This document shows, piece by piece, positions 1 through 23,740 of a stretch of DNA of 39,591 nt. The notes under the pieces are model-generated. The model was not told the origin of the DNA. It saw nothing but the letters and a program-made list of their open reading frames with translations, and ran no database searches. Numbering within the stretch: position 1 is the stretch's first letter; each line of letters starts with the position of its first letter. The position numbers and the translations under genes are program-made. Source of the stretch: a bacterium (GTDB lineage Bacteria > JACRDZ01 > JAJRWM01). The stretch lies in contig JAJRWM010000100.1 in the NCBI GenBank assembly GCA_024276815.1, positions 1 to 39,591 on the forward strand. The letters are read 5' to 3'.

Positions 1-12
1 GCGGTAAATACA

Positions 13-139
13 GGGATTATCAACTTTTAAAGTTTTTAGCGCTTGAACGACGCGCACGGCTCGCCTGGAAAGGAGCGCGGGGAAGAAACCTTTTCAGACA
101 AGAGGTTTGCCCCACAAAATTTCCGGGGGGAACTCCAAA
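13..139 (+). repeat. Intergenic repeat element, copy 1: invariant 5' module with a GCTTGAAC box, then a GGGG-stem-loop-CCCC hairpin at 79-113
   Basis: nt 13-73 are 61/61 identical to the reverse complement of 12257-12317. Similarity continues to about 139, with differences concentrated in the hairpin. The copy may extend left of the window. Confidence 0.85.
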
Positions 140-148
140 ATTTTGCCC

Positions 149-178
149 TTGATTTTTCTAATATTTAAATGCTAGTAT
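149..178 (+). promoter_or_regulatory. Candidate sigma70-type promoter upstream of dnaA
   Basis: TTGATT (149-154), 18-nt spacer, TGc-TAGTAT (extended -10, 173-178). By eye only. Confidence 0.3.
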
Positions 179-314
179 GAACCAGTTGGAAAAAGTAGTC
201 GGAGGTGTTTCTGAAAGTCCAACTATTTCCTTTTGTTAATCTTATCGGGCATTTACGAAGATTTTTAAACTCTTTTAGATACCATATTAGACAAACTGAT
301 TCAACCGGCTGGCT

Positions 315-346
315 TTATCCACAACTGTGGATAAGTCTGTGGGTAA
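315..346. promoter_or_regulatory. DnaA-box cluster upstream of dnaA
   Basis: TTATCCACA 315-323, inverted TGTGGATAA 326-334, TGTGGGTAA 338-346 (1 mismatch). Sits 20-50 nt upstream of the dnaA start. Confidence 0.8.
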
Positions 347-366
347 CTTGTTAAAGGATGTTTTGA

Positions 367-3154: not shown

Positions 3155-4294
3155 TTGTCGATAAATAGTTTAACCCTTAATAAATTCAGGAACTTTGATA
3201 AAGAAACACTCTCCTTTGAAAGCCGCTATGTTTTTTTTCTGGGCCAAAACGCCCAGGGGAAAACCAACCTCCTGGAAGCTATTTATTATTTAACCTGCGC
3301 CAAGTCGTTCAGGACGTCCAGGATAAGCAATTTGGTTAATTTTAACAGCGATTATTTTTATCTGAAGGGAATTTCGCTAAAAAATAACCTGGCCGATGTT
3401 TTAGAGGTTTCATTTAAGAACGGTGAAGGAAGAAAACATAAATATAATGGCGTGCTTCTGAAAAAAGGCGAGTATCCCTGGGGCATAATTCCCACCATCA
3501 GCTACAGCAGAAAAGATTTGAAATTAAGCGAGGAAGAGGCTAGTTTGCGCCGCAAGTTTATCGACCAGGAATTGTCTTTTCTTTCTAAAACCTATTTTTA
3601 TCATCTTAAGAGATATAATCGCGCGCTGAAGCAACGGAACGCGGCTTTGAAAAATAAACATTCCGGAGAGTCGGAGGTCAGGCTCTGGGATGAGGAACTA
3701 GTTGTTCACGGCTTGTATATTATAAAAAAAAGAAGAGAATTTATTGATACGCTTAACATTCTCTCCCGGTTAGCCTATCGCCGGTTAACCGGGAGCTCTG
3801 AAGAACTTAAAATAGGGTTTCGCTGTCAGCTCAACGATCTTAAGGAAAAAGATCCTGAGTCCGCTTATCGCGCTCGTTTAACAAGTGTTTACCAGCGGGA
3901 AAGGAAACTCGGTTACACCCTGTTCGGGCCTCATAAAGATGATCTGGAAATTGTTATTAATGATAATGATATCAGGCAGTTTGGCTCAAGCGGTCAACAT
4001 AAAAGCGTTGTGCTCTCAATCAAGTTGGCCTTGATCGAGATTGTGAAAAAAGAGAGCGGCGTTTACCCGCTTTTGTTATTGGATGAGGTTTTTAGCGAAC
4101 TGGATGAAAAGCGCATCGTTTCGTTAGTACAGATAATCAAGCGGAAAAAGATACAGGTGTTTTTCAGCGGCGATCATCTGCCCGCCTGTTTGAGTAAATT
4201 TTTTACTGATAACACCACCTTTTTTCTTGTTTCCGATAATCAGGTTAAATTACAGGAACGACCGCTTGCGGTCAGACCTGACCTTGCTTCATGA
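3155..4294 (+). CDS. recF: DNA replication/repair protein RecF
   Basis: 379 aa. Walker [16 protein letters not shown], Walker [15 protein letters not shown]-like signature [12 protein letters not shown] start in the ORF track. Confidence 0.9.
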
Positions 4295-7180
4295 CCGCTT
4301 TTTTCCCGTTACCTCATAACGGGGCAGAATATTTATCCAGCGTAGCCGCAGTGAATTGGTTACTACATTTATCGAACTGAAAGCCATGGCTGCTTCAGCG
4401 ATTACCGGGTGAAGCAGCCCGATAATCGCCAGGGGTATCGCGACCACATTATAGAAAAAGGCCCAAAACAGGTTCTGGCGTATTTTGCCAAAGATGGCCC
4501 GGGAAAGTTTGATAGCGCTGATCACGCTGCCGATATTCCCTCGCACCAGTGTAATGTCAGCCGCTTCGATAGCGATATCAGTGCCACTACCGATTGCCAG
4601 CCCCACATCAGCCTGGGAAAGCGCCGGCGCGTCATTAATGCCGTCTCCCACCATCGCTACCCGGCCGCGTTTATCCTGCAATTTTTTTATTTCGTTAAGC
4701 TTTTGATCCGGCAACACCTCCGCGACCACCTGGTCGATTCCCAGTTGACCGGCGATCGCCTCGGCGGTGCGGATATTATCCCCGGTCAGCATGACGGAAT
4801 TAATGCCCATCTTTTTCAGCTCGGCGATGGCCGGAACGGAATCATCCTTCAAACGATCGGCAATTGCCAGGAAACCGGCGAGCCGGCCATTTTTCACCAC
4901 GGCAATAACTGTTTTCGCCGCCGATTCCAACTCGGCGACGCTGACCTGCCATTCCGCCAAATTCAACCCCAACTCCTTTACGGCTGAAATGGAGCCGACA
5001 AAAACACTTTCGTAGTTTATTTTTCCCTTAATACCTTTCCCCGGCAAAGCCTCAAAGCCTTGCGGTTGAACCAGGGTTAAATTATGCCGCAGGGCCTCGT
5101 CTTTAACCGCAGAACCCAAGGGATGCTCTGAGCCTTGTTCCAGGCTGGCGGCCCAGGTCAGCAACTCAAAAGCCGTTACGCCGGAAACCAGTTTCAGGTC
5201 AGTAACCACCGGTTTACCGATGGTTAAGGTGCCGGTTTTATCAAAAACAACAGTCGTGATGTCTTTCAGAATTTCAATGGCCTCGCCTCTCCTGATCAGC
5301 ACTCCGGCGGAAGCGCCTTTACCGCTTCCCACCATTAAAGCTGTTGGGGTCGCTAATCCTAAAGCGCAGGGACAGGCGATCACCAGCACGGCGACCGAAG
5401 CTAAAACAGCGGCGGAAATACCCTGCAAGTTGGGAGTTATCCAAGGCGCTAAGGAAGCGACGCCGGCCAGAAGTTCCTGCATGACTTGAGGCGCCCAGAT
5501 CCAGGCAAAAAAAGTCGCCAACGCGATCACCAGGATAACCGGCACAAAGTAGGCGACGACCCGATCAGCCAGATCCTGGATCGGCACCTTGGAACTCTGG
5601 CATTCTTCCACTAATTTCGCCACTTGCGACAAGAAAGTGTCCGGTCCGATTTTGGTCGCTTCTACTTTAAGAAGTCCCTGTTGATTGATGGTGGCGCCGA
5701 CGACCTGGTCGCCGGGCTTCTTCTTCACGAGTTGGGATTCACCGGTAACCATTGATTCATTGATAGAGCTTTCACCCTCCAGAATCAGGCCGTCGGTAGG
5801 TATTTTCTCTCCCGGGCGAACCACCATAACATCGTGTATTTTAACCGCTTCAATCGGCACTTCTTTTTCAACGCCATCAACCAGGACATGAGCTGTTTTA
5901 CTTCCCAACTCCATCAGTTTCCTGATCGCCTGGGAAGTTTTTCCGCGGGCCTGGTTTTCCAGATAGCGACCGGTTAAATAGATCGCCATAATCATGGCCG
6001 CGACGCCGCTGAAGTTGGCGATTCGGGTAAAGATCGAGAACAGCCCGGTAAAAAAGGCCGTCAGCGTACCCAGGGCCGTCAGCACTTCCATGTTGGCCGT
6101 ACCCAGGCTTACCGCTTTAACCGCTCCCTTCAAAGTTGCCCAGCCGCTGATGAAAATCACCGGAAAAGCCAAAACGACCATCCCGATATTAAACGCCTGA
6201 TGATTTGGCCAGGCAACGCCCCAGATCATTTCCGGCAGCATCCACAAAATTATCGGCACAGTGAACAGCCAGGCGTAGAACATCCTTTTTTTGCTGGCGC
6301 TGATGAATTTAGCTTCTTCTTCATCTTCGGCTTCTGAATCCTGGCCGGGCAGGGCGGCATGGTAGCCAACGCCAATAACCGCGTCAATTAATTTTTCGGG
6401 AGTCGTGTAATCAGCCGCGTAGGAAACATAGGCTTTTTCGTTGGCAAAATTAACCTTGGCCTCAAGAACTCCGGGAGTTTTCAATAAAGCTTTTTCAACC
6501 GTCTGAACACAGGAAGCGCAACTCATCTCATAAACATTCAAGGTGATCCTGGTAATTTTATCGCTGATGATCTTGGTGGGAGAGCTGAACTCCTTTTCCT
6601 GTTTGGGGTTGAGGTATTTCTCCGGATTGGCTTTGAACTTTTCCCGGCATTTGGGATTGCAGAAGTAATAGGTCAGACCTTGATAATCGTACTGACCGGC
6701 GGCGGTGTCAGGACTGACCACCATTAAACATACCGGATCGAAAATTTCCTGAGAGGAGGCAAACTTTTCCGTGTTTTCCTTTTTCAGGTATTTCTCCGGA
6801 TTGCTTTTAAACTTTTCCCGGCATTTGACATTACAGAAATAATAGGTATCACCTTTAAAGGAGTATTCGCCCGCGGCGGTCTTCGGGTCCACCTCCATGT
6901 GACAGACCGGGTCAACCGTCCTGGTTTCAGGCGTCCGCAAAAGCTTTTTAAGCGAAGCCCGGTTTTCAGAAAAGCCCAGAAAAACCTGATCGTTGATAAC
7001 AATGGTCGGAGTCGCCAGTCTTTGATATTTTTCAATAAGCTCTTGTTTGAAAACTTCATTTTCCACCGGTTTTTCCGTAAAATCAACCCTGTTATCAGTC
7101 AGGAATTTCTTGGCGGCCTGACAATCCGCGCAGGTGTTGGCCGTGTAGATTATAACCTTTTCTGAAAACATTAAGTCCAC
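4289..7180 (-). CDS. copA: Copper-translocating P1B-type ATPase with a glutaredoxin-like + 2x YHS/TRASH + HMA N-terminus
   Basis: 963 aa. CPC transmembrane metal site ([11 protein letters not shown]), DKTGTLT phosphorylation site, GDGINDAP hinge, HMA MSCASCV. Two DPVC..YYFCN.KCREKF YHS-type modules. N-terminal thioredoxin-fold segment with CADC. Confidence 0.9.
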
Positions 7181-9960: not shown

Positions 9961-10833
9961 TTAACAATCAAAAAACGAAAAACCCGTACGCCCGCCTTCT
10001 CGGGGAAAGCCCTGATTGGTCTCGTAGGCCGGGAATCCTCCAGATCCCGGCATACGCCGGTCACAGAGATACAAGACGTCAATAACCGCGCCCCTGTTTT
10101 TCCAGGCGCTTGAGCGCCCGCCGTAAATTCTGGTTGCCGGGGTCTTTTTCAGCTCTTCTTTAACTGATTTCAGCAGGCGTTCTTTCCGGAAACGCTTTTC
10201 ACCATAAACCCGGTTAATTTTCCTGGCCCTCAGGTATTGCCGGGCCGCTTTCAAATAGCGGCCCTGACGGTAATAGGCCACCGCCAGATTATAAGCCGCT
10301 TTAGCGTAACCGGGTTGTAACTTCAGGGCGGCCTGGTAATATTTCGCCGCTTGGGAAAAGTTTTTCCGCCGATGGAAAACCACTCCCAGGTTGTTATAGG
10401 AGACAGCGAAACTCTTGTCCGCCTCAATCGCTTTTAAATAATATTCTTCAGCCCGGGCAAAGTTCTTTTTTAAAAAGTAACAGTAGCCGAGGTTATTGTA
10501 AAGCTCGGCGTCGCTGGCTCCATCAGCTAGAGCCTTGAGGTATTCCGATAAAGCCAGGCTGACTTCCCGGGACTCCAGGTAGATATCGCCGAGCCGGGCA
10601 TGTTCATCCCCGGCGCTTAATTTTATGGTCGGAAAAAACATCAGAAGAAAAAGAAGTGCGAGCGGTAATCTGAAGCGAATTAAAACCTTGGGTGAGGCGA
10701 TGCGTGTGACCCTTTTTTTATGCCAAAAAAGAGTTTCCCCACGTCCCCTCTCCAAAAAATAAATTGGCCGATCGCGAAAACCTTGTATAAGCTTGAAATA
10801 CGCTCTAAAAAGCGAAGACCAGCGAGCAACCAT
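9961..10833 (-). CDS. TPR-repeat protein with a signal-peptide-like segment (start uncertain)
   Basis: Several TPR motifs (LYNNLGYCYFLKKNFARAEEYYLKAIEADKSF, AVSYNNLGVVF...). The hydrophobic segment RFRLPLALLFLLMFFPTIKLSAG has no canonical start in front of it. The first 45 codons of the track ORF overlap repeat copy 5. Confidence 0.6.
   Translation of the reverse strand: MVARWSSLFRAYFKLIQGFRDRPIYFLERGRGETLFWHKKRVTRIASPKVLIRFRLPLALLFLLMFFPTIKLSAGDEHARLGDIYLESREVSLALSEYLKALADGASDAELYNNLGYCYFLKKNFARAEEYYLKAIEADKSFAVSYNNLGVVFHRRKNFSQAAKYYQAALKLQPGYAKAAYNLAVAYYRQGRYLKAARQYLRARKINRVYGEKRFRKERLLKSVKEELKKTPATRIYGGRSSAWKNRGAVIDVLYLCDRRMPGSGGFPAYETNQGFPREGGRTGFSFFDC
10709..10812 (-). repeat. Intergenic repeat element, degenerate copy 5
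   Basis: About 40 nt match copy 2: cttttttt..ccaaaaa.g..t.tccccacg.cccct.tcca, plus the gctctaaaaa box edge. The GCTTGAAC box is degraded to GCTTATAC with an insertion. Confidence 0.5.
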
Positions 10834-11757: not shown

Positions 11758-12159
11758 TCAGGGCAAATCCACCAGTCTCCCGTTTTTCACCGGGTAATGC
11801 GAAGCCGCGCAATAATTACAGCGCAACAGCCGGCCAGCGGTCATGACGATTCCTTTTAACAAACCATAGCGGACCAGGCATTGCCGGGAATACTCGGAAC
11901 AGGTCGGATAGAAATTACAACGCGGGCCATCGATGTGGGATATCCTGGTCTGGAACAAGTGTAGCGCGTCCTGGAAAAAAAGCCGGAAGACATTGGTCTC
12001 TTTCATCTTTTTTACGGCGGTCGTTTTCTTGGCCGCGATATCCCAAGGGCGCCACTCCGCCCGGCCGGTATTACTTGAAACCAGCAACAGAAAAAGCAAG
12101 GCGAACCCCGCAATGCCCCTGATTAATAACTTTACGTTCATTGCCAAGAAACCTAACAT
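11758..12159 (-). CDS. yidD: YidD-like membrane protein insertion efficiency factor homolog with N-terminal signal/TM extension
   Basis: ISHIDGPRCNFYPTCSEYSRQCLVRYGLLKGIVMTAGRLLRCN matches the YidD Cys-rich signature. AGGAGG RBS lies just upstream of the ATG at 12159 (2-nt spacer). Confidence 0.8.
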   Translation of the reverse strand: MLGFLAMNVKLLIRGIAGFALLFLLLVSSNTGRAEWRPWDIAAKKTTAVKKMKETNVFRLFFQDALHLFQTRISHIDGPRCNFYPTCSEYSRQCLVRYGLLKGIVMTAGRLLRCNYCAASHYPVKNGRLVDLP

Positions 12160-12190: not shown

Positions 12191-12317
12191 TTTGGAGTTT
12201 CCCCCGGAAATTTTGTGGGGCAAACCTTTTTTTCCAAAAAGGTTCTTCCCCACGCCCCTTTCCAGGCGAGCCGTGCGCGTCGTTCAAGCGCTAAAAACTT
12301 TAAAAGTTGATAATCCC
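12191..12317 (-). repeat. Intergenic repeat element, copy 2 (inverted twin of copy 1)
   Basis: The reverse complement aligns with 13-139: 61 nt identical, then about 10 differences or indels clustered in hairpin 12217-12251. Followed, in its own orientation, by TTGACA and the yidD RBS. Confidence 0.85.
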
Positions 12318-12405
12318 TCCTTGAAAAACCATGCTATTACAAATAGTTATAGCTAATTGATTGTTTTTTTGGGGGGCAGGGGGTTGTTTGGCATATTATC
12401 GACGA

Positions 12406-13410
12406 TCAGAAGGATTTTTTGTAATTGCCCGGAGTCAGGGTTATCCCGGCATAGACAAAGGACTTCACGTAATTAGCGTCCCGGTGATTAGAAATATTAT
12501 TCAAAGAGTCGTAGCCAAGGTTGAAGCTGAGGTAGTCGTTGACCTGGAAAGTAAAAGAATTATACACGCCCGTGAAATTATCAAGGCGCTTTTCATCCAG
12601 ATCAGCATCATCAGGGTCGATCGCGGCGTAATCCCGGTAAATACGCTGGCGCAGATGGCCGGTAACCTGCAAAAAAACGTGTTTGCCAAAACTTTGCCAG
12701 AGGTTGAGATAACCGTTATTATTTTGATAATCCCATTGGTCATCGTTCGAGTTGTTGACGCTGCTCTGATAGGTAATCCCGATACGGGTCGATTTGAATA
12801 TCCGCTGGTTAATGGAAACCTGTCCCCCGCTTTCCTGATCGTTCTGCAACACGGTATCCTCGGGGATTTCCTTGAGGGGATAAAGATATTGGTTGAACTG
12901 GTAAGCGCAGTTGAGCGAAGTGAACCTTGTCAGGTTATACCAGATTCCCGGCGAAACTCCGGAGTGAATAAAATAACCTGACTCATAGCTTGGAACCCCG
13001 CTCACTTCGTAAACCAGGGACAAGTCAGAGCTGAATTTGGGAGTAAAGAGATATTCCGTGAGCCAGGAAACGGTGGACGACTGGAAGGGCACAACGCTGT
13101 CCCGTTCCAGGCCGCGGTTCTCCGCTTCGTCCTCCAGCTTGCTCTGGGCCGGCTCAATATACTGAGATAAGGTGTAGCGGCCGGAAAGCGAAGTTCTCAA
13201 CTTCTTTCCGATGGTCGCGGTTAAGCGAACGCCGGGTAACAATTCATACGAGGTCGCTTTTTGCGGGTCATCCTTTTCGCTGAAAACATTTGAATCGGAA
13301 GTGTAGGTCGCTGACAGAATCGGAGCGAACGATAACTGAACCTCGCTCCAGAGACCGCTGGGTATACTCATCACGAGTACAATAAAACCAATAACCAGTT
13401 TCTTGTTCAA
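12406..13410 (-). CDS. Predicted outer-membrane beta-barrel protein
   Basis: 334 aa. Signal peptide, alternating amphipathic strands rich in Y/S/T/N/G, C-terminal ...GNYKKSF ending in Phe (OMP signature). Family not assigned. Confidence 0.7.
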   Translation of the reverse strand: MNKKLVIGFIVLVMSIPSGLWSEVQLSFAPILSATYTSDSNVFSEKDDPQKATSYELLPGVRLTATIGKKLRTSLSGRYTLSQYIEPAQSKLEDEAENRGLERDSVVPFQSSTVSWLTEYLFTPKFSSDLSLVYEVSGVPSYESGYFIHSGVSPGIWYNLTRFTSLNCAYQFNQYLYPLKEIPEDTVLQNDQESGGQVSINQRIFKSTRIGITYQSSVNNSNDDQWDYQNNNGYLNLWQSFGKHVFLQVTGHLRQRIYRDYAAIDPDDADLDEKRLDNFTGVYNSFTFQVNDYLSFNLGYDSLNNISNHRDANYVKSFVYAGITLTPGNYKKSF

Positions 13411-13465
13411 ACGAAATCTCCTCTAGAATCTGTCTGTAAGTCAAATAATTTTCAAGAAGAATCTC

Positions 13466-13541
13466 GGGGTCTCTTTTTGTAAAACACCACCCCCGATCCC
13501 CCACATATCTATCGTGCGAGTTGTTCAAGCTCTAAAACTTT
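13466..13541 (-). repeat. Intergenic repeat element, copy 3 (box subfamily shared with copy 4)
   Basis: The reverse complement reads aaagttttagaGCTTGAACaaCtCGCaCGatagatatgtggggg, followed by an imperfect GGGG...CCCC hairpin at 13466-13493. It begins about 20 nt after the giant gene stop. Confidence 0.6.
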
Positions 13542-13561
13542 CATTTGATCGTTAAAAGCTT

Positions 13562-16500
13562 TTAGTACAGATCAAATATGTGTAACCGCCCCAGGCCGCT
13601 GGCGCTGTCGCGTCGCAGGTATAACACCTTGTCCTGGTTGATCACCGGATTTATTTCATCAGCTTTCTGCCCGGTCAGAAGAAGTTTGCGGCCTTCAAAG
13701 AGGTCATAGAGATAAACGTCGCTGTCAACTCCGTTGTCCTCCTGCCAGACAGCCCGGTCGCCAAAAATTCGGGGGGCTAAATGATCAACCGTGGTATCAA
13801 AGGTCAAATCAACGGCCGTGGTATCGAAAACAACAATCTGGGTCTTCCCGGCCAGCCGGTCCTCTTCATAAATATATTTGTTTCCATAAACATCAGGTTT
13901 TCTCTGATTATAGGTTGTGTCCTGGACAATAGCGTAACTGACACCGCCCACAGCCAGGTCGAAGCCGTAAATATCCTCATCCCCGTTGCGGGTGTCTACC
14001 CAAACGACCCGGTTCCTGAAAATGCGGGGGTCGTATTCATCGGTGGTGGATATTCCGGGAATCAGCGTCTCCGTACTGTCAAAAAGATTGTAATAATAAA
14101 TATCGTACTGGGGGTTGTCGCGTCTGTCCTGCCAGACCACATATCTTCCATAGATGTCAGGATGCTCCTGAGCGCCGGTGGACACCGTATTCACCCGCTG
14201 ACCGCTGTCAACGGGATTGGCGAAATCATTCTTGTGAGCGTAATAAATATCCGCCGTGCCCTCCCGGTAATCTTCCCAGACAACGGTGTTTTCATAAATC
14301 GCGGGATTGAGCTGCGTGAAGCTGTTAATACAGACCGGAACCTCCGTTTTGGTTGTCAGATCAAAAAGGAAAATGTCCGGGTTGCCGTTTCGATCATCCG
14401 AGTAAACCAACTTATCCCCCCAGATATCCCAGCCATAAACATTATGAGGCGGTTGGGGTAAATCATGCTCGCCGGTCGGCTCCAGATCAAAGAGGTAAAT
14501 ATTCCAGTTGGGAGCCGCCGCGCCGTCATCCTGGGACCAGACTATTTTCTCCCCCCAGATATCGGGCTTGGCCTTATTCTTGGTGGCGGTAAAAGTGAGT
14601 CTCTTTTCCGAAGCGGTGGTATCCATCAAGTCTGTCATGTACAATTCGGCCTTGCTCGTAGCGTCCCGGTAATCCTCCCAGACGATCAGCGGCCCGAAAA
14701 TAACCGGGTTAAGCTGGCTTAAAGGCTCGTTTTGCAGCCGGGTATCTGTTGTGTTAAGGAGATCCCGGTACCAGATATCATAGTAACCGTCACGGTTGTC
14801 GCTCCAGACCAGAGAGTTCTCCCAGAGATCGGGACTGCTCTGGATGCCCGTCGAAGCGGCGACCGCCAGTTCGCCGGACAACGCGCTGATATCGGACATA
14901 AATAAATCCTGGTTAGTTGTGCCTCTCTCGTAAATCGCCGAAAGTTCCCAGAGAGTCGGATTATATGAACCAAGCATATCATTGGCCACTTCAACAGAGA
15001 CAAAAGGAGGCGCCGACAGGTCCATTTTATAGAGATAGTCGTAGGCGCTACTGTTTGAAACGTAAACCAGATTATTCTCGTATATTGCCGGCGTCATGTT
15101 GCTGAAACTACTATTTGCTGGTATCGCGAAGGTGCTGTCATAAAAGCCATCATACAGGTACAGGTCATAAAGGCCATCCATATTTTCGGAATAAACAACC
15201 TGGTCGCCCCAGATAGCCGGTTCAGCCTGATTCCAGGAAATGTCATTGCTCAGGTTCTGCTCTGTTTTGGTTGACAGGTTATACAGATAAACGTCGATAT
15301 CAAAACCGCTATTATTGCGATGATCTTCCCAGACCACCTTATCACCCCAGATCCGCGGGTTCTGCTGATCAAAAGCGGCGTTGGTAATTATTTTAATATC
15401 ACTGCGGGGAGCCGCGACCCGCTTTACCGGGTTGCCGTAAGTGTAATTACTGTCGATATCATAAGGATAGAGCTGGTAATAATAATACTCCTGGTTGATT
15501 AAGCCAAGGTCATTATAAGTGCTGTCCACGGAACCATAGTAAACCACATCGCCGTCGCCAAGGACGCTGCCCGCATTGTAGGAAATCCCGTTAACCGGGC
15601 CGGCGCCCGGGTAATCGCCCAGCTTGCGCAGGATAAGCACGCCGTCCCAGGCCGGATCAGTCAGGTTGTCCCAACACAGCTCAACGCTGGAGTCAAACCC
15701 CAAGGCCCAGAAAGGGTTGGGCTTGAGATCAATGTTCATGGAAGTCGGCGGGCTGACATTGCCCAGATCATCCCTGGCGAGCAGGGAAATACTGTTGGGG
15801 CCTTCATGGAGGGTGGTGTCAAAGGTCCAGGAACCGGAAAAAGGCGTGAAAGGAATCAGGGCGCCGTTGACAGAGATCGCTTCAACATCCGGTTCGCAGG
15901 TGCCGTCTATTGTCCAGGTCTGTTGGTGGGTTGAAAAATCAACGCCATTATAGGGTGTTACAATAATCGGCGCATTGACGGTTGTGTCGAAAATTATTTC
16001 GATAACATCGCGGGCGCTTTTCGTGCTGTCAGCGGCGACCCCGTAAACGCCAAGATAGTTGCCGCTGCCAGCCAGGTTGATGCTTTCAGTCCAGGTTGCG
16101 CTGTTAGGCGCATAAGCCGTTATCTGAAAGGTCGTATCCAGGGTAGCGTCCAGGAAGTATTTTTCAACAAAGATCGCTACGGTATTCGTGGAATCACAAC
16201 TGCCAGCCAGGGTTACCGGGGAAGCGGCGACCCGGACCGACAAACCACTGCCCGGAGAGGTGATTACCGGCGGCGCGATATAGGTTGAATCCAGAGTAAT
16301 CGCTATGTCTTCAAAAGCCCCGACATTGCTCGAGCTGTCATAACCGGCGAAATGAAAATAATTCACTCCGGTCTCCAGCGTGATGCCGGAATGTCCCCAG
16401 GAAGAATCATAGGCGGTAAAAGTATTAACCGGCATCGTGGTCTCCTGGCTGGCCGAGGTATGAGTAACTATAATAGCAACGGTATCGGAACTGCAATCCC

Positions 16501-18754
16501 CAAAGAAGTTGACAGTCGGGACCGGCGTGGTGAAATCATTGCCCAGGTTAGGTGCGTGCATTTGCAAATAACCGGTGCCCACTATTGCGCGCTGGATGAT
16601 GGTCGTATCAAAAGCCCCCCCAACTGAACTACTGTCATAGCCGGTAAAACGGTAGGAATTGTCCCCCAGCTCAAGCGAAGCCAGAAAAGACCAGGTTGTG
16701 TCCGTCGCGGTATAGTTGGGCAGGTTGAAAGATGTGTCGCTGGAAGAGGAGAGGTAATCCACGCCTATCGAATAGGTGTCGGGAGAACAAATACCCGTGA
16801 TTAGAAAAGTTGAGTCAAAGGTACCATAGACACCGGGAGCGGGCTTGGTGACCGCTAACATCTGCGTGCCGTAACTGATGATCGTAAAAGAATAGTTGAC
16901 GTTTACCTGGTTGCCGCTAAGATCGCTGGCTGTAATCGCTACCGGAACTGTCTGGGCGATAAGAAACAGCGTGTCTCTGAAGACCGTAACATTAAAGCCC
17001 CCGGCTCCGTCGCTAACTATTCCGCTTCCGCTGAAACCGGCCTGAACCACACCGTTCAGGATCGCCGCGGCGCTGTCAACCGTAACATTAATGGTCGTGG
17101 AATCCACTCCTGACAGGTTATCGTCGATTTCAAAATAAACGCTGGCGTTAACGGGAAGGTTGATCGCGCCGTCCGCCGGAATCAGGTTGGTAACGGTCGG
17201 CGGAGCGGTGTCGCCCACATCAACAGTGGTGAAGGAATAGGTTTCGGTCGGCATCGCGTTTGGGGTTGACGCGTAGTCCGAGACATCAACCTGCACGCTG
17301 ATCATTTGGTTGCCGCTGAATGGCGCTGGCGGAACAATGGTGACGTTGTAGCCGCCGGCGTCATCAGAAACCAGTTGACCACTGAAGCCGTTTTGGAAGA
17401 CTCCGTCGCTGATAGCCTGGAGACTGTTCGTCAGTGCGTTAAGCTTAAAGATTCCGTCGGTGGCGGCTTGAGCACTGTCCACCAGCACATTCAGCGTGTT
17501 CAGATTAACGCTGGAGCCAACGTCGTCAATTTCAAAATAAATACTGGTTGCCAGGGGAACGTTAACCGCGCCGGGCGCCGGGTTATGGTTGGTAATCACG
17601 GGGGCGGTTGCGTCGCCGGCCGGCGTGTAGGTAACATCCAGAGTCGCCGGCAACGCCAGGGTGCCCGACGGATGATAAGCATAGAATAAGAAGCTGTTCA
17701 ATCCCGAGGTCAGAGGGTGGGTTAGCGACCAGGTCGTGTCGGAAGCGACATAGCCGGGCAGCTCAAAGGTTGAGTCAAGACTACTGTCATAATCGGACAA
17801 ATAACTTACCACAAATATTCCGGTCGCCGGGTCGGTCGTGCCGCTGATCGTAATTGGCGAACCGGTCGTGACAAAGGGGGTGGTCGCGGGCGCGGTAATA
17901 GTCGGCGCCGGCAAGAGGGTTGAGGAGTCGAAATAAAGGGCTTGCTGGGCCGGCGGTACGTAAGTGCTGTCGGCGCCGATACCAAAAATATTAAACTGGT
18001 TAAAACCGGGAGCTAAATCGTAATCATAGCTCCAGGTGGTGTCCCCGGGTAAATAGGTTCCATTTGGAAACGAGGTTAGCGAGAAGGTCGTGTCCAGGCT
18101 GGGAACGTTGGTTGAGAAATAATTAACCCAGATATCGATCAGGGCCGGGTCGCAAGTGCCGGCGAAAGTGTGGCTTGGCTGACCGGTGAGAACACTGTTA
18201 CCGTTGAAAGGAGCCGTGATCACCGGTGAAGGCGGCCCACCGCCAACCTGGTAAACAAAGATGTTAACCGTGGAAAAATCACCGGTGGTTAAATCAGCGT
18301 AAGCGTTGCCGTAAAGGACGTTTTTATTGTTAAAACCAATTAAAAACACCTCGAAAAAACGATCCGAACCAACCGGGACATCCACCTCAAGCTCCGCGGC
18401 TGTTTGTCCGGGGGGAATATCGATTACCTTATTGATGTTATCAATATCGTCCGCGCTCACTGAAAGCCGGACCGCTTTGACCGGCGGCAAAGTCGCGACC
18501 AGCGTGGTGCCCCCGGCCGTCTTTTTGATTTGCCGCTTGATGTTGATGTTAACTGAAGCGTATCTGGTCGCCGAATGTCCGCCTGCCTGCTCGCTGTTTT
18601 TCGGCCCGCAACCATTAAGCGCGGAGAAGGAAAGAATCAACAAGATTACCAAGGATAAAAGCGGAATCGTTTTATTCCGCCACCGAAGTCGCCGATTATA
18701 TTCAGACGCTTCGTTCAGGTTGGCTGATTCGGGCTTTTTCTTATCAATCAACAT
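13562..18754 (-). CDS. Giant surface/periplasmic lipoprotein: 6 Ig-like modules, 2 SbsA/Big_5-like modules, an FN3-like domain and 14 beta-propeller-type repeats
   Basis: 1732-aa track ORF (GTG 18760). GGGAGG sits 5 nt before ATG 18754. Lipobox-like FSALNGC (Cys51). Repeated P.IT.P...G.CD...TTWS...G.N.F modules. Two APxxTNxxPAxGAxNxP...YFEIDD modules. 14 repeats of the form P.IWGD.VVWED.R.G..DIY.Y.L. Confidence 0.9.
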   Translation of the reverse strand: MLIDKKKPESANLNEASEYNRRLRWRNKTIPLLSLVILLILSFSALNGCGPKNSEQAGGHSATRYASVNINIKRQIKKTAGGTTLVATLPPVKAVRLSVSADDIDNINKVIDIPPGQTAAELEVDVPVGSDRFFEVFLIGFNNKNVLYGNAYADLTTGDFSTVNIFVYQVGGGPPSPVITAPFNGNSVLTGQPSHTFAGTCDPALIDIWVNYFSTNVPSLDTTFSLTSFPNGTYLPGDTTWSYDYDLAPGFNQFNIFGIGADSTYVPPAQQALYFDSSTLLPAPTITAPATTPFVTTGSPITISGTTDPATGIFVVSYLSDYDSSLDSTFELPGYVASDTTWSLTHPLTSGLNSFLFYAYHPSGTLALPATLDVTYTPAGDATAPVITNHNPAPGAVNVPLATSIYFEIDDVGSSVNLNTLNVLVDSAQAATDGIFKLNALTNSLQAISDGVFQNGFSGQLVSDDAGGYNVTIVPPAPFSGNQMISVQVDVSDYASTPNAMPTETYSFTTVDVGDTAPPTVTNLIPADGAINLPVNASVYFEIDDNLSGVDSTTINVTVDSAAAILNGVVQAGFSGSGIVSDGAGGFNVTVFRDTLFLIAQTVPVAITASDLSGNQVNVNYSFTIISYGTQMLAVTKPAPGVYGTFDSTFLITGICSPDTYSIGVDYLSSSSDTSFNLPNYTATDTTWSFLASLELGDNSYRFTGYDSSSVGGAFDTTIIQRAIVGTGYLQMHAPNLGNDFTTPVPTVNFFGDCSSDTVAIIVTHTSASQETTMPVNTFTAYDSSWGHSGITLETGVNYFHFAGYDSSSNVGAFEDIAITLDSTYIAPPVITSPGSGLSVRVAASPVTLAGSCDSTNTVAIFVEKYFLDATLDTTFQITAYAPNSATWTESINLAGSGNYLGVYGVAADSTKSARDVIEIIFDTTVNAPIIVTPYNGVDFSTHQQTWTIDGTCEPDVEAISVNGALIPFTPFSGSWTFDTTLHEGPNSISLLARDDLGNVSPPTSMNIDLKPNPFWALGFDSSVELCWDNLTDPAWDGVLILRKLGDYPGAGPVNGISYNAGSVLGDGDVVYYGSVDSTYNDLGLINQEYYYYQLYPYDIDSNYTYGNPVKRVAAPRSDIKIITNAAFDQQNPRIWGDKVVWEDHRNNSGFDIDVYLYNLSTKTEQNLSNDISWNQAEPAIWGDQVVYSENMDGLYDLYLYDGFYDSTFAIPANSSFSNMTPAIYENNLVYVSNSSAYDYLYKMDLSAPPFVSVEVANDMLGSYNPTLWELSAIYERGTTNQDLFMSDISALSGELAVAASTGIQSSPDLWENSLVWSDNRDGYYDIWYRDLLNTTDTRLQNEPLSQLNPVIFGPLIVWEDYRDATSKAELYMTDLMDTTASEKRLTFTATKNKAKPDIWGEKIVWSQDDGAAAPNWNIYLFDLEPTGEHDLPQPPHNVYGWDIWGDKLVYSDDRNGNPDIFLFDLTTKTEVPVCINSFTQLNPAIYENTVVWEDYREGTADIYYAHKNDFANPVDSGQRVNTVSTGAQEHPDIYGRYVVWQDRRDNPQYDIYYYNLFDSTETLIPGISTTDEYDPRIFRNRVVWVDTRNGDEDIYGFDLAVGGVSYAIVQDTTYNQRKPDVYGNKYIYEEDRLAGKTQIVVFDTTAVDLTFDTTVDHLAPRIFGDRAVWQEDNGVDSDVYLYDLFEGRKLLLTGQKADEINPVINQDKVLYLRRDSASGLGRLHIFDLY

Positions 18755-18776
18755 GCTCACCTCCCGACCTCGACGA

Positions 18777-19992: not shown

Positions 19993-20021
19993 AGTATAGA
20001 GCCAAAGGAGCAGGATGTCAA
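19993..20021 (-). promoter_or_regulatory. Near-consensus sigma70 promoter for the FecR/giant-gene operon
   Basis: On the minus strand: TTGACA (20021-20016), exactly 17 nt, TATACT (19998-19993). About 90 nt upstream of ATG 19895. Confidence 0.55.
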
Positions 20022-20083
20022 TTGGAAATTCCGTGTTGGTGGAAAAGGGAAGGAACATCGTACCCCCCTAAAAACTTTACACT

Positions 20084-21616: not shown

Positions 21617-22024
21617 GTGAAAGCTCTCCTTTAAAGCGCGGTCAAGTTATAAATTTTGTTAAAGCGTCTTTCAGGCTTACGTAAGGTTTTTGCCGCAGGT
21701 ATATTTTAACTTTAGGTGATTATAAACGATCTCCCACAAGTTTTGCCATGTATCCAGAAACAATATGGAATAGTTCCTTCTCCCGATTATTGTAACAAAA
21801 TTCCAAAAAAATCAGAAAGCGAAAAACCAGCGCGCGGGGCTTTTTCAGGCTTCGCTGAAAAACAGCTCGTCGACAAACAGGCAAAAACCGCCCCCTCGGC
21901 ACCCCCCAAAAAACTTCAAACGGCCTGATCGGTAAGTCCTTTCGTAAACCGGAAAACGCTATCAATTTTGATATTTCAATAGATTAATCAAAGAAGCGAA
22001 TAGCCCTGAGGCTCAGCTTAAAAC

Positions 22025-22234: not shown

Positions 22235-22918
22235 ATGCTAAGAAATTTTCGCTTCCTTTTTATTGTCGCCTTATCTTCATGCTTGGCGTTGGCCTCGGTA
22301 AGCGCGGCTTCGTTTGTCACTTACAGCGACAGCTCAAGTTTCAACGCAGCGCTGGGCGGCACAGTTCTCAACACCCAGGATTTTAACAGTTATTCACATA
22401 TGGACAATTTGAATGGCGTCGAGTTGCTTCCCGGAGTGACGGTAACGTCCAACATGAGTAATATTGTCGCCTGGCAGGTATCGCAGCCCAATCCAATATT
22501 ATTCGCGTATGATAGCGTTATCCGCAACTCAACGACGGACGCTTACTATGATATTAACCTGGCCTCAGCGTATAATACAGTCCAGTTTACGATAGAAGCC
22601 TGGGACCCCGCCGCTCCCGGGCCGGGCACGATGGAAATTTTCTTTAGCGACGCGACCAGTTCTTCTTTGCAATTATTTCAAACCGGGGCTCATGAAAGCG
22701 ATCCAGTGTTTTTTGGCGTCATATCCGATGCCTCTATTGATAGGATTCGCTGGACTGAAGGTCCGGAAATATACGGTGGTGGCAACGAAGAAACGGGGCT
22801 GGATAATATTAGTGTGGGAAATGTAAACGCTATTCCTGAACCAGCCACGATTTTCTTGCTTGGCGGTGGTCTGTTGGGCATGTTTGGTCTTAAGAAAAAC
22901 AGCTCATCTGAGGCCTGA
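22235..22918 (+). CDS. PEP-CTERM sorting-domain protein
   Basis: Signal peptide. C-terminal IPEPATIFLLGGGLLGMFGLKKN = PEP motif + TM helix + basic cluster. GGAGAAAC RBS. Confidence 0.8.
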   Translation: MLRNFRFLFIVALSSCLALASVSAASFVTYSDSSSFNAALGGTVLNTQDFNSYSHMDNLNGVELLPGVTVTSNMSNIVAWQVSQPNPILFAYDSVIRNSTTDAYYDINLASAYNTVQFTIEAWDPAAPGPGTMEIFFSDATSSSLQLFQTGAHESDPVFFGVISDASIDRIRWTEGPEIYGGGNEETGLDNISVGNVNAIPEPATIFLLGGGLLGMFGLKKNSSSEA

Positions 22919-22930
22919 AGAACTTCTCGA

Positions 22931-22969
22931 AAAAAAGAGGCGTCCTGTTATGGGGCGCCTCTTTTTTTT
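22931..22969. terminator. Bidirectional rho-independent terminator between convergent genes
   Basis: AAAAAAGAGGCGtCC - tgttatg - GGgCGCCTCTTTTTTTT: a GC-rich stem flanked by an A-run and a T-run. Confidence 0.75.
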
Positions 22970-22970
22970 C

Positions 22971-23016
22971 TAACACGTCCCCTCCATATCCATCGCGCGA
23001 GCAGTTCAAGCATTAA
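22971..23016 (-). repeat. Intergenic repeat element, copy 4 (box only; the hairpin position is occupied by the terminator)
   Basis: The reverse complement ttaatGCTTGAACtgCtCGCgCGatggatatggagggga aligns with copy 3 (gcttgaac..ctcgc.cgat.gatatg..gggga). Confidence 0.55.
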
Positions 23017-23104
23017 ATTGCAATATTGGCCTGCGGCGAAAAAATCGTTGCCTGTGTTCGTAAAACGCTCTAAAAGGGGGAGGGTTCTTAATTATTGTCC
23101 TGCA

Positions 23105-23740
23105 TCAATATGGGTTGTCAATAAAGTTAAAGGGACAGCGCAACTCTTTGATCTCTTTAATGATTCTTGCCGGGACGCCGGCGGCGACGACATTCGCCGG
23201 CACGTCTTCCGTGACCACCGCTCCCGCGCCGATCAGGCTGTTTTCGCCTATCGTAATATGAGGCAGGAGTGTCGCGTTCGCGCCAATCTTGGCTCCCCGC
23301 TTGAGATGCGGCCCCTTAAGGCAACGTTTAACCTGCGGACATTGCGGATGAAAAGCGTTGGTGAAAGTGACGGCCGGGCCGATCCAGACATCCTCCTCCA
23401 AAACCGAATACTCCGGGATGAAGACATTGGAATGAATCCGCGCCCTGTTCCCTATTTTTACGTGGTGCTCAATCACCGAGTGAGAACCAATGCTGACCTG
23501 AGCGCCAATCGTGTTGAACTCTCGTATTAAAACGCCATGACCGGTCATAAAATGATCGCCGATTTTGTTGCCGTGATAAATTACCGTATGGGAACGCAGA
23601 ACGGCTTTGTCGCCAATCAGCGTTGAGGGGATTTTATCCCCGGCCTTGATGGAGTGTTCGCCGATGATGACATAGTCGCCGATAACGACATCCTTGCCCA
23701 GTACGACGTTAGGATGGATCCGATAATCTTTACCCGGCAT
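23105..23740 (-). CDS. Hexapeptide-repeat (left-handed beta-helix) sugar N-acetyltransferase, WbpD/WlbB-like
   Basis: 211 aa. Repeated [LIV]G..x hexapeptides throughout. Overlaps the upstream oxidoreductase by 11 nt. Confidence 0.8.
   Translation of the reverse strand: MPGKDYRIHPNVVLGKDVVIGDYVIIGEHSIKAGDKIPSTLIGDKAVLRSHTVIYHGNKIGDHFMTGHGVLIREFNTIGAQVSIGSHSVIEHHVKIGNRARIHSNVFIPEYSVLEEDVWIGPAVTFTNAFHPQCPQVKRCLKGPHLKRGAKIGANATLLPHITIGENSLIGAGAVVTEDVPANVVAAGVPARIIKEIKELRCPFNFIDNPY

What the first reader, a model, noticed from the sequence alone, without database searches (positions are those of the whole stretch)
12191..12317. The repeat element looks like a structured RNA: hairpin preserved by different sequences, with competing GGGG/CCCC/GGGGG pairings
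In element orientation the layout is: a 61-nt invariant module (contains GCTTGAAC); GGGG; an inner stem-loop; CCCC; ACAAAATTTCC; GGGGG; AACTCCAAA. Copy 1 has inner stem AAACCTTT/AGAGGTTT with a 7-nt loop. Copy 2 has AACCTTTTT/AAAAAGGTT with a GGAA loop. Almost all differences between the copies fall in this hairpin, yet both still fold. The CCCC could pair either with the upstream GGGG or the downstream GGGGG, which is an attenuator-like alternative. A 1-nt indel (C5 vs C6 run) breaks every reading frame between copies, which argues against a peptide. I do not recognise this as any named RNA family.
Basis: partly seen in the sequence, partly recalled or inferred. Interest (0 to 1): 0.65.

Follow-up and report, generated by a model that had tools for sequence, protein, structure and literature searches.

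The report
Mosaic hairpin repeat between genes
The 128-base element is one copy of a small non-coding repeat, scattered in whole and broken pieces through at least seven gaps between genes on this contig; it carries a long hairpin but shows no sign of being a riboswitch or attenuator, so it is most likely an ordinary "junk-or-helper" intergenic repeat of a kind known in many bacteria.

Summary
The repeat is real. It has two 128-nt copies, at 12-139(+) and 12191-12318(-), that are 92% identical with sharp edges. Both fold into a ~76-nt imperfect hairpin.

- The "C5/C6 indel" is a G-to-A substitution. The copies align without gaps, so reading frames are not broken.
- Copy 1 versus copy 2 shows no compensatory base-pair change. 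The differences are loop changes plus a 1-nt slide in homopolymer runs.
- The "competing" CCCC:downstream-GGGG pairing costs 4.8-12.8 kcal/mol. Its pair probability is at most 0.0003, and no terminator follows.

New here: the element belongs to a mosaic family with at least five further degenerate pieces in the same 39.6 kb. A 24-nt unstructured core is shared by four loci. One old copy (10683-10758) keeps a long hairpin with a different 3' arm.

All pieces lie between genes and are co-oriented with a neighbouring gene. There are no terminal inverted repeats and no target duplications. I found no match in Rfam, 185,579 species genomes, metagenomes, phages, plasmids or E. coli.

Best reading: a lineage-specific dispersed repeat, similar in kind to BOX, ERIC and BRE elements, that is co-transcribed with its neighbours. 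Any RNA-level role is inferred, not shown.

The parts
12191..12318 (-). Copy 2 (c2), the finding itself: a full-length 128-nt element between the orphan 334-aa gene (12406-13410) and the yidD-like gene (11758-12159), in the same orientation as both.
12..139 (+). Copy 1 (c1): a full-length 128-nt element, 92% identical to c2. It starts 11 nt from the contig start and ends 228 nt upstream of dnaA, in the same orientation as dnaA.
12197..12272 (-). Long imperfect hairpin of c2 (element positions 47-122): -38.3 kcal/mol, z -5.6. The equivalent hairpin in c1 is 58-133(+): -29.9 kcal/mol, z -2.3.
12272..12295 (-). 24-nt core TTTARNGCTTGAACNNCNCGCNCG in c2. The same core lies at 35-58(+) in c1, 13513-13536(-) in c3 and 22994-23017(-) in c4. 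It is predicted to be unstructured.
   Evidence: (4 matches, 0.00 expected)
13464..13549 (-). c3: a diverged partial copy lying 13 nt after the stop of the 1732-aa gene and upstream of the orphan gene. It matches element positions 7-47 (86% over a 30-nt BLAST match), then has a short UCGGGG/CCCCGA helix. Its overall fold is not significant.
22978..23085 (-). c4: an upstream module U (23021-23083), then the core, then CGATGGATATGGAGGGGACG. It lies in a gap between convergent genes. It shares 40 nt at 80% with c3 and 58 nt of module U with c6.
22925..22968 (.). Bidirectional intrinsic terminator just downstream of c4 (AAAAAAAAGAGGCG..CGCCTCTTTTTTT). It is the only canonical terminator next to any family member.
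23094..23121 (-). Sigma-70-like promoter match (TTGACA-16-GACAAT, 10 of 12) upstream of c4. Together with the terminator it would define a unit of about 160 nt. This is a consensus match only.
10707..10817 (-). c6: an old, near full-length copy that starts at the stop codon of the BamD-like gene and lies inside the annotated first ~45 codons of the TPR ORF. It aligns to c2 element positions ~10-101. Its hairpin module is 80% identical to c2 over 44 nt. The core is not conserved.
10683..10758 (-). Long hairpin of c6: -26.2 kcal/mol, z -3.55. The 5' arm is homologous to c2. The 3' arm has a different sequence but is complementary.
21630..21705 (+). c7: one or two tandem U-like (core-variant) modules in the gap between divergent genes. 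The profile match covers 21658-21700 (E 1.7e-4); a second module at about 21630-21655 was seen by eye only. c7 is co-oriented with the downstream gene 22235-22918.
20068..20079 (-). c5: possible debris. It is an exact 12-mer, TAAAGTTTTTAG, identical to element positions 17-28 and lying 5 nt after the stop of the M23 peptidase gene. Membership is weak.

Best explanation
The finding is one copy of a lineage-specific, non-coding, dispersed intergenic repeat built from interchangeable modules:
- a 5' A/T-rich piece;
- a 24-nt single-stranded core;
- a G-rich linker;
- a ~76-nt imperfect hairpin.

Copies arise by duplication or some form of transposition and then decay piecemeal. That would explain two near-identical full copies alongside at least five older partial or diverged pieces in 39.6 kb.

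Every piece is co-oriented with a neighbouring gene. Several sit between cistrons of what looks like one long minus-strand operon. The element is therefore probably transcribed as part of those mRNAs. I infer that the sense-strand hairpin then acts as a passive RNA structure, either a barrier to 3'-to-5' exonucleases or a processing site, that changes the fate of the flanking mRNA segments. This is what has been reported for REP/BIME, ERIC and BOX elements. The element may equally be selfish and neutral for the host.

Shown: the repeat family, its modules, the hairpins, its placement between genes and its orientation, and the absence of the family from public data.

Inferred: mobility, transcription, and any effect on mRNA.
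For: - Two 128-nt copies are 92% identical, have sharp boundaries and have unrelated flanks.
- A 24-nt core occurs four times against 0.00 expected.
- Local similarities link c1-c2, c2-c3, c3-c4, c4-c6, c2-c6 and c6-c7, each pair over a different segment. This is a mosaic pattern.
- All seven loci lie in gaps between genes or at a gene boundary. The four that sit between co-directional genes all share the genes' orientation.
- Long hairpins in c1, c2 and c6 are more stable than shuffles (z -2.3, -5.6 and -3.55). The sense strand folds better than the antisense strand in all three.
- The c6 hairpin keeps pairing despite a different 3' arm.
- No terminator-like site was found in the gaps that hold c2, c3 or c6. 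A near-consensus promoter (TTGACA-17-TATACT) lies at 20021-19993(-), upstream of the whole gene run. This fits co-transcription.
- The contig ends 11 nt outside copy 1, as happens when assemblies break at repeats.
- The family is lineage-restricted. I found no element in 185,579 species genomes, JGI metagenome contigs, viral contigs, plasmids, phages or E. coli. Six-frame peptides found nothing among 5.8 billion proteins.
- The published properties of BOX, ERIC, BIME and BRE elements match in kind (PMC3049150, PMC3184786, PMC3110155).
Against: - There are no terminal inverted repeats (P 0.30 and 0.37) and no 2-10 nt target-site duplication. No transposase or RAYT gene lies in the window. Mobility is therefore unproven.
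- Only one contig of this genome is available, so genome-wide copy number is unknown.
- Conservation is uneven. The core is kept in c3 and c4 while the hairpin is lost. The hairpin is kept in c6 while the core is lost. The 62-nt 5' part is invariant between c1 and c2 (P = 0.01). This could mean selection on particular modules, which would be a real function rather than neutral decay.
- There are no transcript data at all.
Confidence: 0.5

Rival explanations
1. The loci are a family of related small RNAs or cis-acting leader/intercistronic RNAs under selection. A conserved single-stranded 24-nt core would act as a seed or protein-binding site, followed by a stabilising hairpin or terminator. 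This is the architecture of multi-copy sRNAs such as OmrA/B or Qrr.
For: - The core is the most widely shared module, is predicted to be unstructured, and is followed by a hairpin (c1, c2) or a canonical terminator (c4).
- c4 sits between convergent genes, with a sigma-70-like promoter match 70 nt upstream and a terminator downstream.
- The 62-nt invariant 5' part of c1 and c2 is unlikely under uniform divergence (P = 0.01).
- Orientation is always gene-sense.
Against: - The scan found no promoter-like site upstream of c1, c2 or c3.
- No terminator follows c1, c2, c3 or c6.
- The core is lost in c6 and c7.
- Nothing similar exists in any other genome searched, whereas regulatory sRNAs are usually conserved at least within a genus or family. 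No such close relative of this organism is available, so this point is weak.
- A target scan of translation start regions gave nothing beyond chance.
Confidence: 0.2
2. The conserved core is a DNA-level site. It could be the binding site of a regulator or nucleoid protein, or the recognition sequence of the recombinase or transposase that spreads the element. Under this view the hairpin is incidental or acts as single-stranded DNA.
For: - The core is an asymmetric linear motif with no RNA structure.
- It contains a -35-like TTGAAC preceded by an A/T-rich stretch.
- By eye, c1, c2 and c3 each end 10-15 nt before a -35-like hexamer (TTGATT, TTGACA, TTGAAA) of the downstream gene.
Against: - No -10 element lies at a workable distance from TTGAAC in any copy.
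- By inspection, sigma-28, sigma-32, sigma-54, ECF, CIRCE and SOS-box consensus sequences do not fit.
- c4 has no downstream gene in its orientation.
- As DNA, the c1 hairpin is no more stable than shuffles (z -0.15).
- A binding site does not explain 128 nt of near-identity.
Confidence: 0.12
3. One reading: a cis-regulatory attenuator or riboswitch-like RNA in which CCCC switches between the upstream GGGG and the downstream GGGGG.
For: - The three G/C runs exist in both full copies.
- c1, c2 and c3 lie upstream of co-oriented genes.
Against: - The alternative pairing is 4.8-12.8 kcal/mol worse, with pair probability at most 3e-4.
- In the best fold all three runs are paired at once within a single hairpin.
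- There is no U-tract terminator and no sequestered ribosome-binding site.
- The likely promoters of dnaA and yidD lie downstream of the element.
- No Rfam family matches.
- The downstream genes (dnaA, yidD-like, an orphan gene) share no obvious ligand logic.
Confidence: 0.04
4. The element encodes a small protein: either the 31-aa reverse-strand ORF (20-115-, 12215-12310+) or the forward TTG ORF (43-168+, 12183-12287-).
For: Both ORFs are open and of similar length in both full copies, because the copies differ only by substitutions.
Against: - All 6 amino-acid differences in the 31-aa ORF come from non-synonymous changes, and there are no synonymous changes.
- There is no convincing ribosome-binding site.
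- The frames are not kept in c3, c4 or c6.
- Pfam gives no hit, including ribosomal protein L34, which was tested because of the position next to dnaA.
- No similar protein exists among 5.8 billion.
- A 31-codon open frame at this GC content is expected by chance about one time in five (my estimate).
- BOX elements also carry open frames on both strands without evidence of translation (PMC3049150).
Confidence: 0.03

Closest known systems
BOX elements of Streptococcus pneumoniae (boxA/boxB/boxC modules)
   Same: - Short, non-coding and dispersed between genes.
- Built from modules that occur in different combinations.
- Predicted to fold into stable stem-loops when transcribed.
- Open reading frames on both strands.
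- Co-transcribed with neighbouring genes; mobility was inferred without clear target duplications (PMC3049150).
   Different: - No sequence similarity was tested or is expected.
- The host lineage is different.
- Copy number here is known only for one contig.
- Transcription has not been shown here.
BRE, the ~90-bp Betaproteobacterial repeat element transcribed as BprJ sRNA in Bordetella
   Same: - Found either full-length or as conserved 40-60 bp partial copies.
- Mostly in gaps between genes, sometimes several at one locus.
- Mobility is suspected but unproven; one copy is expressed as a small RNA (PMC3110155).
   Different: - BRE is GC-rich and spread across many Betaproteobacteria.
- The present family was found in no other genome.
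ERIC (127-bp) and other MITE-type repeats (Correia, RUP)
   Same: - Similar size (128 nt), non-coding and intergenic.
- Long RNA-level stem-loop.
- Often in 3' or intercistronic transcribed regions, where they change mRNA stability (PMC3184786, PMC3049150).
   Different: - MITEs are defined by terminal inverted repeats and target-site duplications. Both were tested here and are absent.
- There is no sequence match in 5,426 E. coli genomes, which carry ERIC.
REP/BIME elements
   Same: - Extragenic hairpin-forming repeats in mosaic arrangements.
- Known to stabilise upstream mRNA or attenuate transcription within operons (PMC3184786, PMC3049150).
   Different: - REP units are short GC-rich palindromes, in some species with a conserved GTAG head, and are linked to RAYT transposases (PMC3184786).
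- Here the conserved core is not palindromic, the hairpin is ~76 nt and A/U-rich at its tip, and no RAYT gene lies in the window.
Multi-copy trans-acting sRNA families (for example OmrA/OmrB, Qrr1-5); this comparison rests on my own knowledge
   Same: - Related copies share a conserved single-stranded 5' segment, followed by variable sequence and a 3' hairpin.
- c4 has that look, with a promoter match and a terminator.
   Different: - Those families have their own promoters and terminators at every copy and are conserved across related species.
- Neither is seen for c1, c2, c3 or c6.

Membership tests
MITE (including ERIC, Correia, RUP) | Terminal inverted repeats | tested here: not met
   The best local match between the first 35 nt and the reverse complement of the last 35 nt scores 6 against 5.2-5.3 in shuffles (P 0.30 for c1, 0.37 for c2).
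MITE (including ERIC, Correia, RUP) | Target-site duplication flanking the insert | tested here: not met
   No 2-10 nt direct repeat flanks c1 or c2. Only 11 nt of left flank exist for c1.
MITE (including ERIC, Correia, RUP) | Small (<~400 bp), no transposase, several copies, long stem-loop at the RNA level | tested here: met
   The element is 128 nt with two full and at least five partial copies. Hairpin z-scores are -2.3, -5.6 and -3.55. No Pfam hit for its ORFs.
ERIC | Sequence similarity to the enterobacterial consensus | tested here: not met
   blastn (word size 11) against 5,426 complete E. coli genomes gave no match.
REP/BIME | Short GC-rich palindromic unit (GTAG head in some species) associated with a RAYT transposase | tested here: not met
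   The shared 24-nt core is not palindromic and is predicted to be unstructured. No transposase-like gene appeared among the 20 window proteins scanned. The rest of the genome is not available.
BOX-like modular dispersed repeat (a kind, not a sequence family) | Independent modules found in varying combinations at different loci | tested here: met
   The core is in c1-c4. The hairpin module is in c1, c2 and c6. Module U is in c4, c6 and c7. The 5' piece is in c1, c2 and c3.
BOX-like modular dispersed repeat (a kind, not a sequence family) | Many copies genome-wide, with insertion polymorphism between strains | not testable with these tools
   Only this contig is available. No sequencing runs or related genomes were found.
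Any curated RNA family (Rfam 15: riboswitches, leaders, sRNAs) | Covariance-model score at or above the family's gathering threshold | tested here: not met
   The whole window gave 0 matches at gathering thresholds. Permissive scans of c1-c4 gave only sub-threshold chance or terminator-like matches.
Transcription attenuator / riboswitch expression platform | Two mutually exclusive structures of comparable stability, one of them a terminator or an RBS-sequestering helix | tested here: not met
   The alternative pairing is +4.8 and +12.8 kcal/mol worse, with probability at most 3e-4. No terminator-like site lies at c1 or c2.
Structured functional RNA (general) | Base pairs kept through compensatory changes across homologues | tested here: inconclusive
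   c1 vs c2: 0 of 39 pairs changed on both sides. c6 vs c2: at least 3 pairs changed on both sides in a 5'-arm-anchored comparison, but the 3'-arm correspondence is taken from the fold itself. The covariance model scores c3 and c4 at 8.5-10 bits. There are too few sequences for a statistical test.
Sigma-70 promoter | -35 and -10 hexamers separated by 16-18 nt | tested here: not met
   The scan found no site within or just upstream of c1, c2 or c3. TTGAAC in the core has no -10 partner. The organism does have consensus promoters elsewhere.

The most novel reading that the evidence does not exclude
The family is not selfish debris but a lineage-specific RNA system of an uncultured, deeply branching diderm bacterium. 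A 24-nt single-stranded core would be read by a dedicated RNA-binding protein or RNase (or would act as an sRNA seed). It would be joined to a sense-strand hairpin placed between the cistrons of long envelope-gene operons and next to dnaA. Together they would set the relative expression of neighbouring genes.
Probability: 0.15. Interest if true: 0.55.

Novelty: new member of a known kind. Interest (0 to 1): 0.3.

Why it matters
If the reading is right, this is a new sequence family of a well-known kind, the small dispersed hairpin repeat. It comes from a lineage with no close relatives in public data: the best DnaA match is 56-57% identical, and one neighbouring gene has no homologue among 5.8 billion proteins.

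Its practical value is modest but real:
- Such repeats break assemblies, and one sits at the contig end here.
- They mislead gene callers. One copy lies inside the annotated start of a TPR gene, and open frames run across the element on both strands.
- They can be mistaken for riboswitches.
- Because the family is dense on this contig (7 loci in 39.6 kb), it could serve as a marker for binning and strain typing of this organism.

Only if the core and hairpin turn out to be a selected RNA signal would it teach something new about gene regulation.

Tried and rejected
**Searches that found nothing**
- Rfam at gathering thresholds on the whole window, and at E <= 10 on c1-c4: nothing credible.
- Exact 21-mer of the core in 185,579 species genomes: 0 hits.
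- Degenerate 24-nt core pattern in the same genomes: 3 hits in Myxococcaceae and Burkholderiales with no similarity beyond the pattern, about the number expected by chance.
- 20-mer in JGI metagenome contigs: 8 unrelated chance hits.
- Viral contigs, plasmids, phages and E. coli: nothing.
- Six-frame peptides of the element against 5.8 billion proteins: nothing.
- Sequencing-run index: no run.
- The window's own proteins are not on record elsewhere.
- dnaA loci of the two nearest relatives: no element.

**Ideas rejected by a tool result**
- A remnant of ribosomal protein L34 (rpmH), considered because rpmH normally lies divergent to dnaA and the reverse ORF has an FQxS-basic stretch: no Pfam hit even at E <= 10.
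- Small-ORF coding: rejected for the reasons given under the rival explanations.
- A composite transposon or invertible 12-kb segment bounded by c1 and c2 as inverted repeats: no target duplication and housekeeping content (dnaA, dnaN, recF, lepA). Kept only as a note.
- An assembly artefact (an inverted duplication at a contig end): rejected because the copies differ at 10 positions.
- sRNA target prediction against the 26 translation start regions: the top hit (yidD-like gene) is not beyond chance once multiple testing is considered.
- GC skew to place the origin relative to the copies: uninformative, because skew follows gene strand.

**Ideas rejected by inspection only**
- Sigma-28 promoter. 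TAAAGTTT is an exact match to the -35 consensus as I recall it, but the -10 CGA is misplaced by 1-2 nt, is absent from c3 and c4, and the downstream genes are not flagellar.
- Sigma-32 (CTTGAA matches, but CCCCAT is 50-60 nt away), sigma-54, ECF, sigma-B and sigma-H promoters.
- CIRCE (left arm matches 7 of 9, but there is no right arm), the Cheo SOS box, the cre site, dif, parS and Noc sites.
- Integron attC: no RYYYAAC/GTTRRRY pair.
- CRISPR. GTTTTAGAGCT in c3 matches the first 11 nt of the Streptococcus pyogenes Cas9 repeat as I recall it, but there is no regular array and no cas gene.
- Diversity-generating retroelement: the differences are not adenine-specific.

Full report
**Setting**

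The window is a whole 39,591-bp contig (one search lists 39,591 as the longest contig for its own DnaA) with 48.6% GC. It carries dnaA-dnaN-recF on the plus strand. A long run of minus-strand genes follows:
- a copper ATPase;
- lepA;
- a TPR protein;
- a BamD/YfiO-like lipoprotein;
- a yidD-like gene;
- an orphan 334-aa gene;
- a 1732-aa Big_5 protein;
- a FecR-domain protein.

The organism has no close relative in the searchable data. The best DnaA match is 56-57% identical. The orphan protein has no homologue among 5.8 billion sequences.

**Check of the observation**

The repeat is real. Positions 12-139(+) and 12191-12318(-) are 128 nt each. They align without gaps at 92% identity, and the flanks are unrelated.

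So is the statement that most differences fall in the inner hairpin: 7 of 10 lie within 15 nt (P = 3e-4), and the first 62 nt are invariant (P = 0.01).

Both copies fold into one long imperfect hairpin covering element positions 47-122. Copy 1 gives -29.9 kcal/mol (z -2.3) and copy 2 gives -38.3 kcal/mol (z -5.6).

1. There is no indel. GGGGGGAAC versus GGGGGAAAC is a G/A substitution at position 119. Reading frames are therefore preserved, and two small ORFs are open in both copies.
2. Between the two copies no base pair changes on both sides: 0 of 39. The stems have essentially the same sequence. The differences are one G.U to A-U change, a 1-nt register slide produced by length changes in an A-run and a T-run, and a replaced loop.
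3. The proposed competition for CCCC is not thermodynamically credible. Forcing CCCC onto the downstream G-run costs 4.8 kcal/mol in copy 1 and 12.8 kcal/mol in copy 2, and its ensemble probability is at most 3e-4. In the best fold the downstream G-run pairs with the upstream CGCCUGG and extends the same hairpin. No terminator-like site is present.

**What else is there**

The two copies are not alone.

*The core.* A degenerate 24-nt core, TTTARNGCTTGAACNNCNCGCNCG, occurs four times against 0.00 expected. Besides the two full copies it lies at 13513-13536(-) (c3) and 22994-23017(-) (c4).
- c3 matches element positions 7-47.
- c3 and c4 share 40 nt at 80%.

*c6.* A further old copy starts at the stop codon of the BamD-like gene and lies inside the annotated N-terminus of the TPR ORF.
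- It aligns to copy 2 over roughly element positions 10-101.
- Its hairpin module is 80% identical to copy 2 over 44 nt (score 23 against 8.2 +/- 1.3 in shuffles).
- It shares a 58-nt upstream module with c4.
- It has lost the core.

*c7 and c5.* A related upstream module lies at 21658-21700(+) (c7; E 1.7e-4). An exact 12-mer of the element lies at 20068-20079(-) (c5).

*Pattern.* Each pairwise similarity covers a different segment, so the family is a mosaic of modules. All loci are in gaps between genes or at a gene boundary. The four that lie between co-directional genes all share the genes' orientation. By my estimate the chance of that is 1 in 16. The remaining three are each co-oriented with one neighbour.

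**Structure across the family**

- The shared core is predicted to be unstructured (z -0.05 to +1.4).
- c3 has no significant fold.
- The only strong structure in c4 is a bidirectional terminator.
- A covariance model of the full c1/c2 structure scores c3 at 10.1 bits and c4 at 8.5 bits, with E about 1-2.
- c6 folds into a 76-nt hairpin of the same architecture (-26.2 kcal/mol, z -3.55).

In c6 the 5' arm is homologous to copy 2, and the 3' arm has a different sequence that is still complementary. Anchoring on the 5' arm, at least three pairs differ on both sides yet remain paired: A-U to G-C, A-U to C-G, and A-U to U.G. The 3'-arm correspondence is taken from each copy's own fold, so this comparison leans towards the structure.

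The gene-sense strand folds better than the antisense strand in all three hairpins (-29.9 vs -26.6, -38.3 vs -27.8, and -26.2 vs -21.8 kcal/mol). The numbers of G.U pairs are similar on the two strands, so the strand evidence is weak. As DNA, the copy-1 hairpin is no better than shuffles.

The hairpin module therefore appears to be maintained as a hairpin. The family as a whole is not one conserved RNA structure.

**Searches elsewhere**

Every search outside the window was negative.
- Rfam: no match.
- Exact 21-mer and degenerate 24-nt pattern in 185,579 species genomes: 0 hits and 3 chance hits.
- 20-mer in JGI metagenome contigs: 8 chance hits.
- Viral contigs, plasmids, phages and E. coli genomes: nothing.
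- The element's six-frame peptides against 5.8 billion proteins: nothing.
- Sequencing runs holding the contig: none listed.
- dnaA loci of the two nearest relatives: the canonical rpmH-rnpA-(yidD)-yidC cluster next to dnaA, and no element.

No transcript evidence and no comparative evidence beyond this contig can therefore be obtained with these tools.

**Most likely explanation**

The finding is a copy of a lineage-specific, non-coding, modular dispersed repeat. The reasons are:
- two near-identical copies with sharp edges;
- a trail of older, differently decayed pieces;
- strict placement between genes;
- a contig that ends 11 nt outside one copy;
- complete absence from other genomes.

These are the hallmarks of the small interspersed repeats described in many bacteria (PMC3184786, PMC3049150). 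The closest in kind are two families:
- The pneumococcal BOX elements are modular, carry open frames on both strands, are co-transcribed, and have no clear target duplication (PMC3049150).
- The Bordetella BRE occurs as full-length or 40-60 bp partial copies, and one copy is expressed as an sRNA (PMC3110155).

It is not a MITE in the strict sense, because terminal inverted repeats and target-site duplications were tested and are absent. It is not ERIC. It does not fit REP/BIME, because the core is not palindromic.

Several observations make co-transcription likely:
- c3, c2 and c6 lie between genes of one minus-strand run.
- No terminator-like site lies in those gaps.
- A near-consensus promoter lies upstream at 20021-19993.

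The inferred mechanism is a passive sense-strand RNA hairpin that alters decay or processing of the flanking mRNA, as reported for REP/BIME, ERIC and BOX (PMC3049150, PMC3184786). That step is inference.

**Rivals**

- *An sRNA or cis-RNA family with a single-stranded conserved core.* This is the most serious rival. c4 has a promoter match and a terminator, and the core and the 62-nt 5' part look selected.
- *A DNA-level protein site.* This cannot be excluded, but I found no consensus it fits.
- *A small peptide.* This is unlikely. All changes in the ORF are non-synonymous, and the frames are not kept in the other copies.

**Verdict**

There is a hairpin-bearing non-coding element, probably acting at the RNA level if it acts at all. 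It is not a switch. Novelty: a new member of a known kind. Interest is modest.

Noticed in passing
window 12-139(+) and 12191-12318(-): The two full copies are in inverted orientation and bracket 12 kb that holds dnaA, dnaN, recF, a copper ATPase, lepA, TPR and BamD-like genes and the yidD-like gene. Recombination between them would invert the origin-proximal segment. There is no target duplication, so it is not a composite transposon.
   Followed up: partly
window 1-366; compare L012 9328-10001 and L013 9515-10001: In the two nearest relatives, rpmH-rnpA-(yidD)-yidC lies divergent to dnaA. Here the contig ends 366 nt upstream of dnaA with no rpmH. A yidD-like gene with a long N-terminal extension (133 aa) sits 12 kb away, just downstream of copy 2 and without rnpA or yidC. 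The origin region seems rearranged.
   Followed up: partly
window 315-334 and 1699-1921: A palindromic pair of perfect DnaA boxes (TTATCCACAACTGTGGATAA) lies upstream of dnaA. The 33% GC dnaA-dnaN gap holds several DnaA-box-like sequences (TGTGGATAA, TTATCCAG, TTATCAACA). Either region is a likely oriC. Both full copies of the element also carry a 7-of-9 box (TTATCAACT).
   Followed up: no
window 12406-13410(-): An orphan 334-aa protein has no Pfam hit and no homologue among 5.8 billion proteins. It has an N-terminal signal-like segment and ends in ...YKKSF. A terminal Phe is typical of outer-membrane beta-barrels (my own knowledge). It sits downstream of a FecR-domain gene and a 1732-aa Big_5 surface protein.
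   Followed up: partly
window 9961-10833(-): The annotated start of the TPR gene (ATG 10833) overlaps the BamD-like gene and runs through repeat copy c6. The first in-frame ATG/GTG/TTG codons after it are a TTG at codon 27, inside c6, and then an ATG that lies after the hydrophobic signal-like segment. The true start is therefore uncertain. It may lie within the repeat, as reported for some BOX elements.
   Followed up: partly
window 19993-20021(-): A near-consensus promoter, TTGACA-17-TATACT, lies upstream of the FecR-like gene. It could drive a ~12-kb minus-strand operon down to lepA, with c3, c2 and c6 as intercistronic elements.
   Followed up: no
window 12365-12390(+), 20062-20082(+), 21901-21921(+): Runs of the type TTTTTTTGGGGGG / CCCCCCAAAAAA recur in several gaps between genes next to family members. 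Two of them are 86% identical over 21 nt. Their meaning is unknown.
   Followed up: no
window 4289-7180(-), repeats 6609-6739 and 6783-6913: The P-type ATPase carries an N-terminal glutaredoxin domain, two YHS domains (the 131-nt direct repeat, 75% identical) and an HMA domain. This is an unusual N-terminal metal-binding array.
   Followed up: no
window 13513-13541(-): c3 contains GTTTTAGAGCT, identical to the first 11 nt of the Streptococcus pyogenes Cas9 CRISPR repeat as I recall it. There is no array and no cas gene, so I judge it a coincidence.
   Followed up: partly
window 13562-18760(-): The 1732-aa Big_5 protein contains several internal nucleotide repeats (families D2, D3 and D6), which suggests tandem domain duplications.
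   Followed up: no
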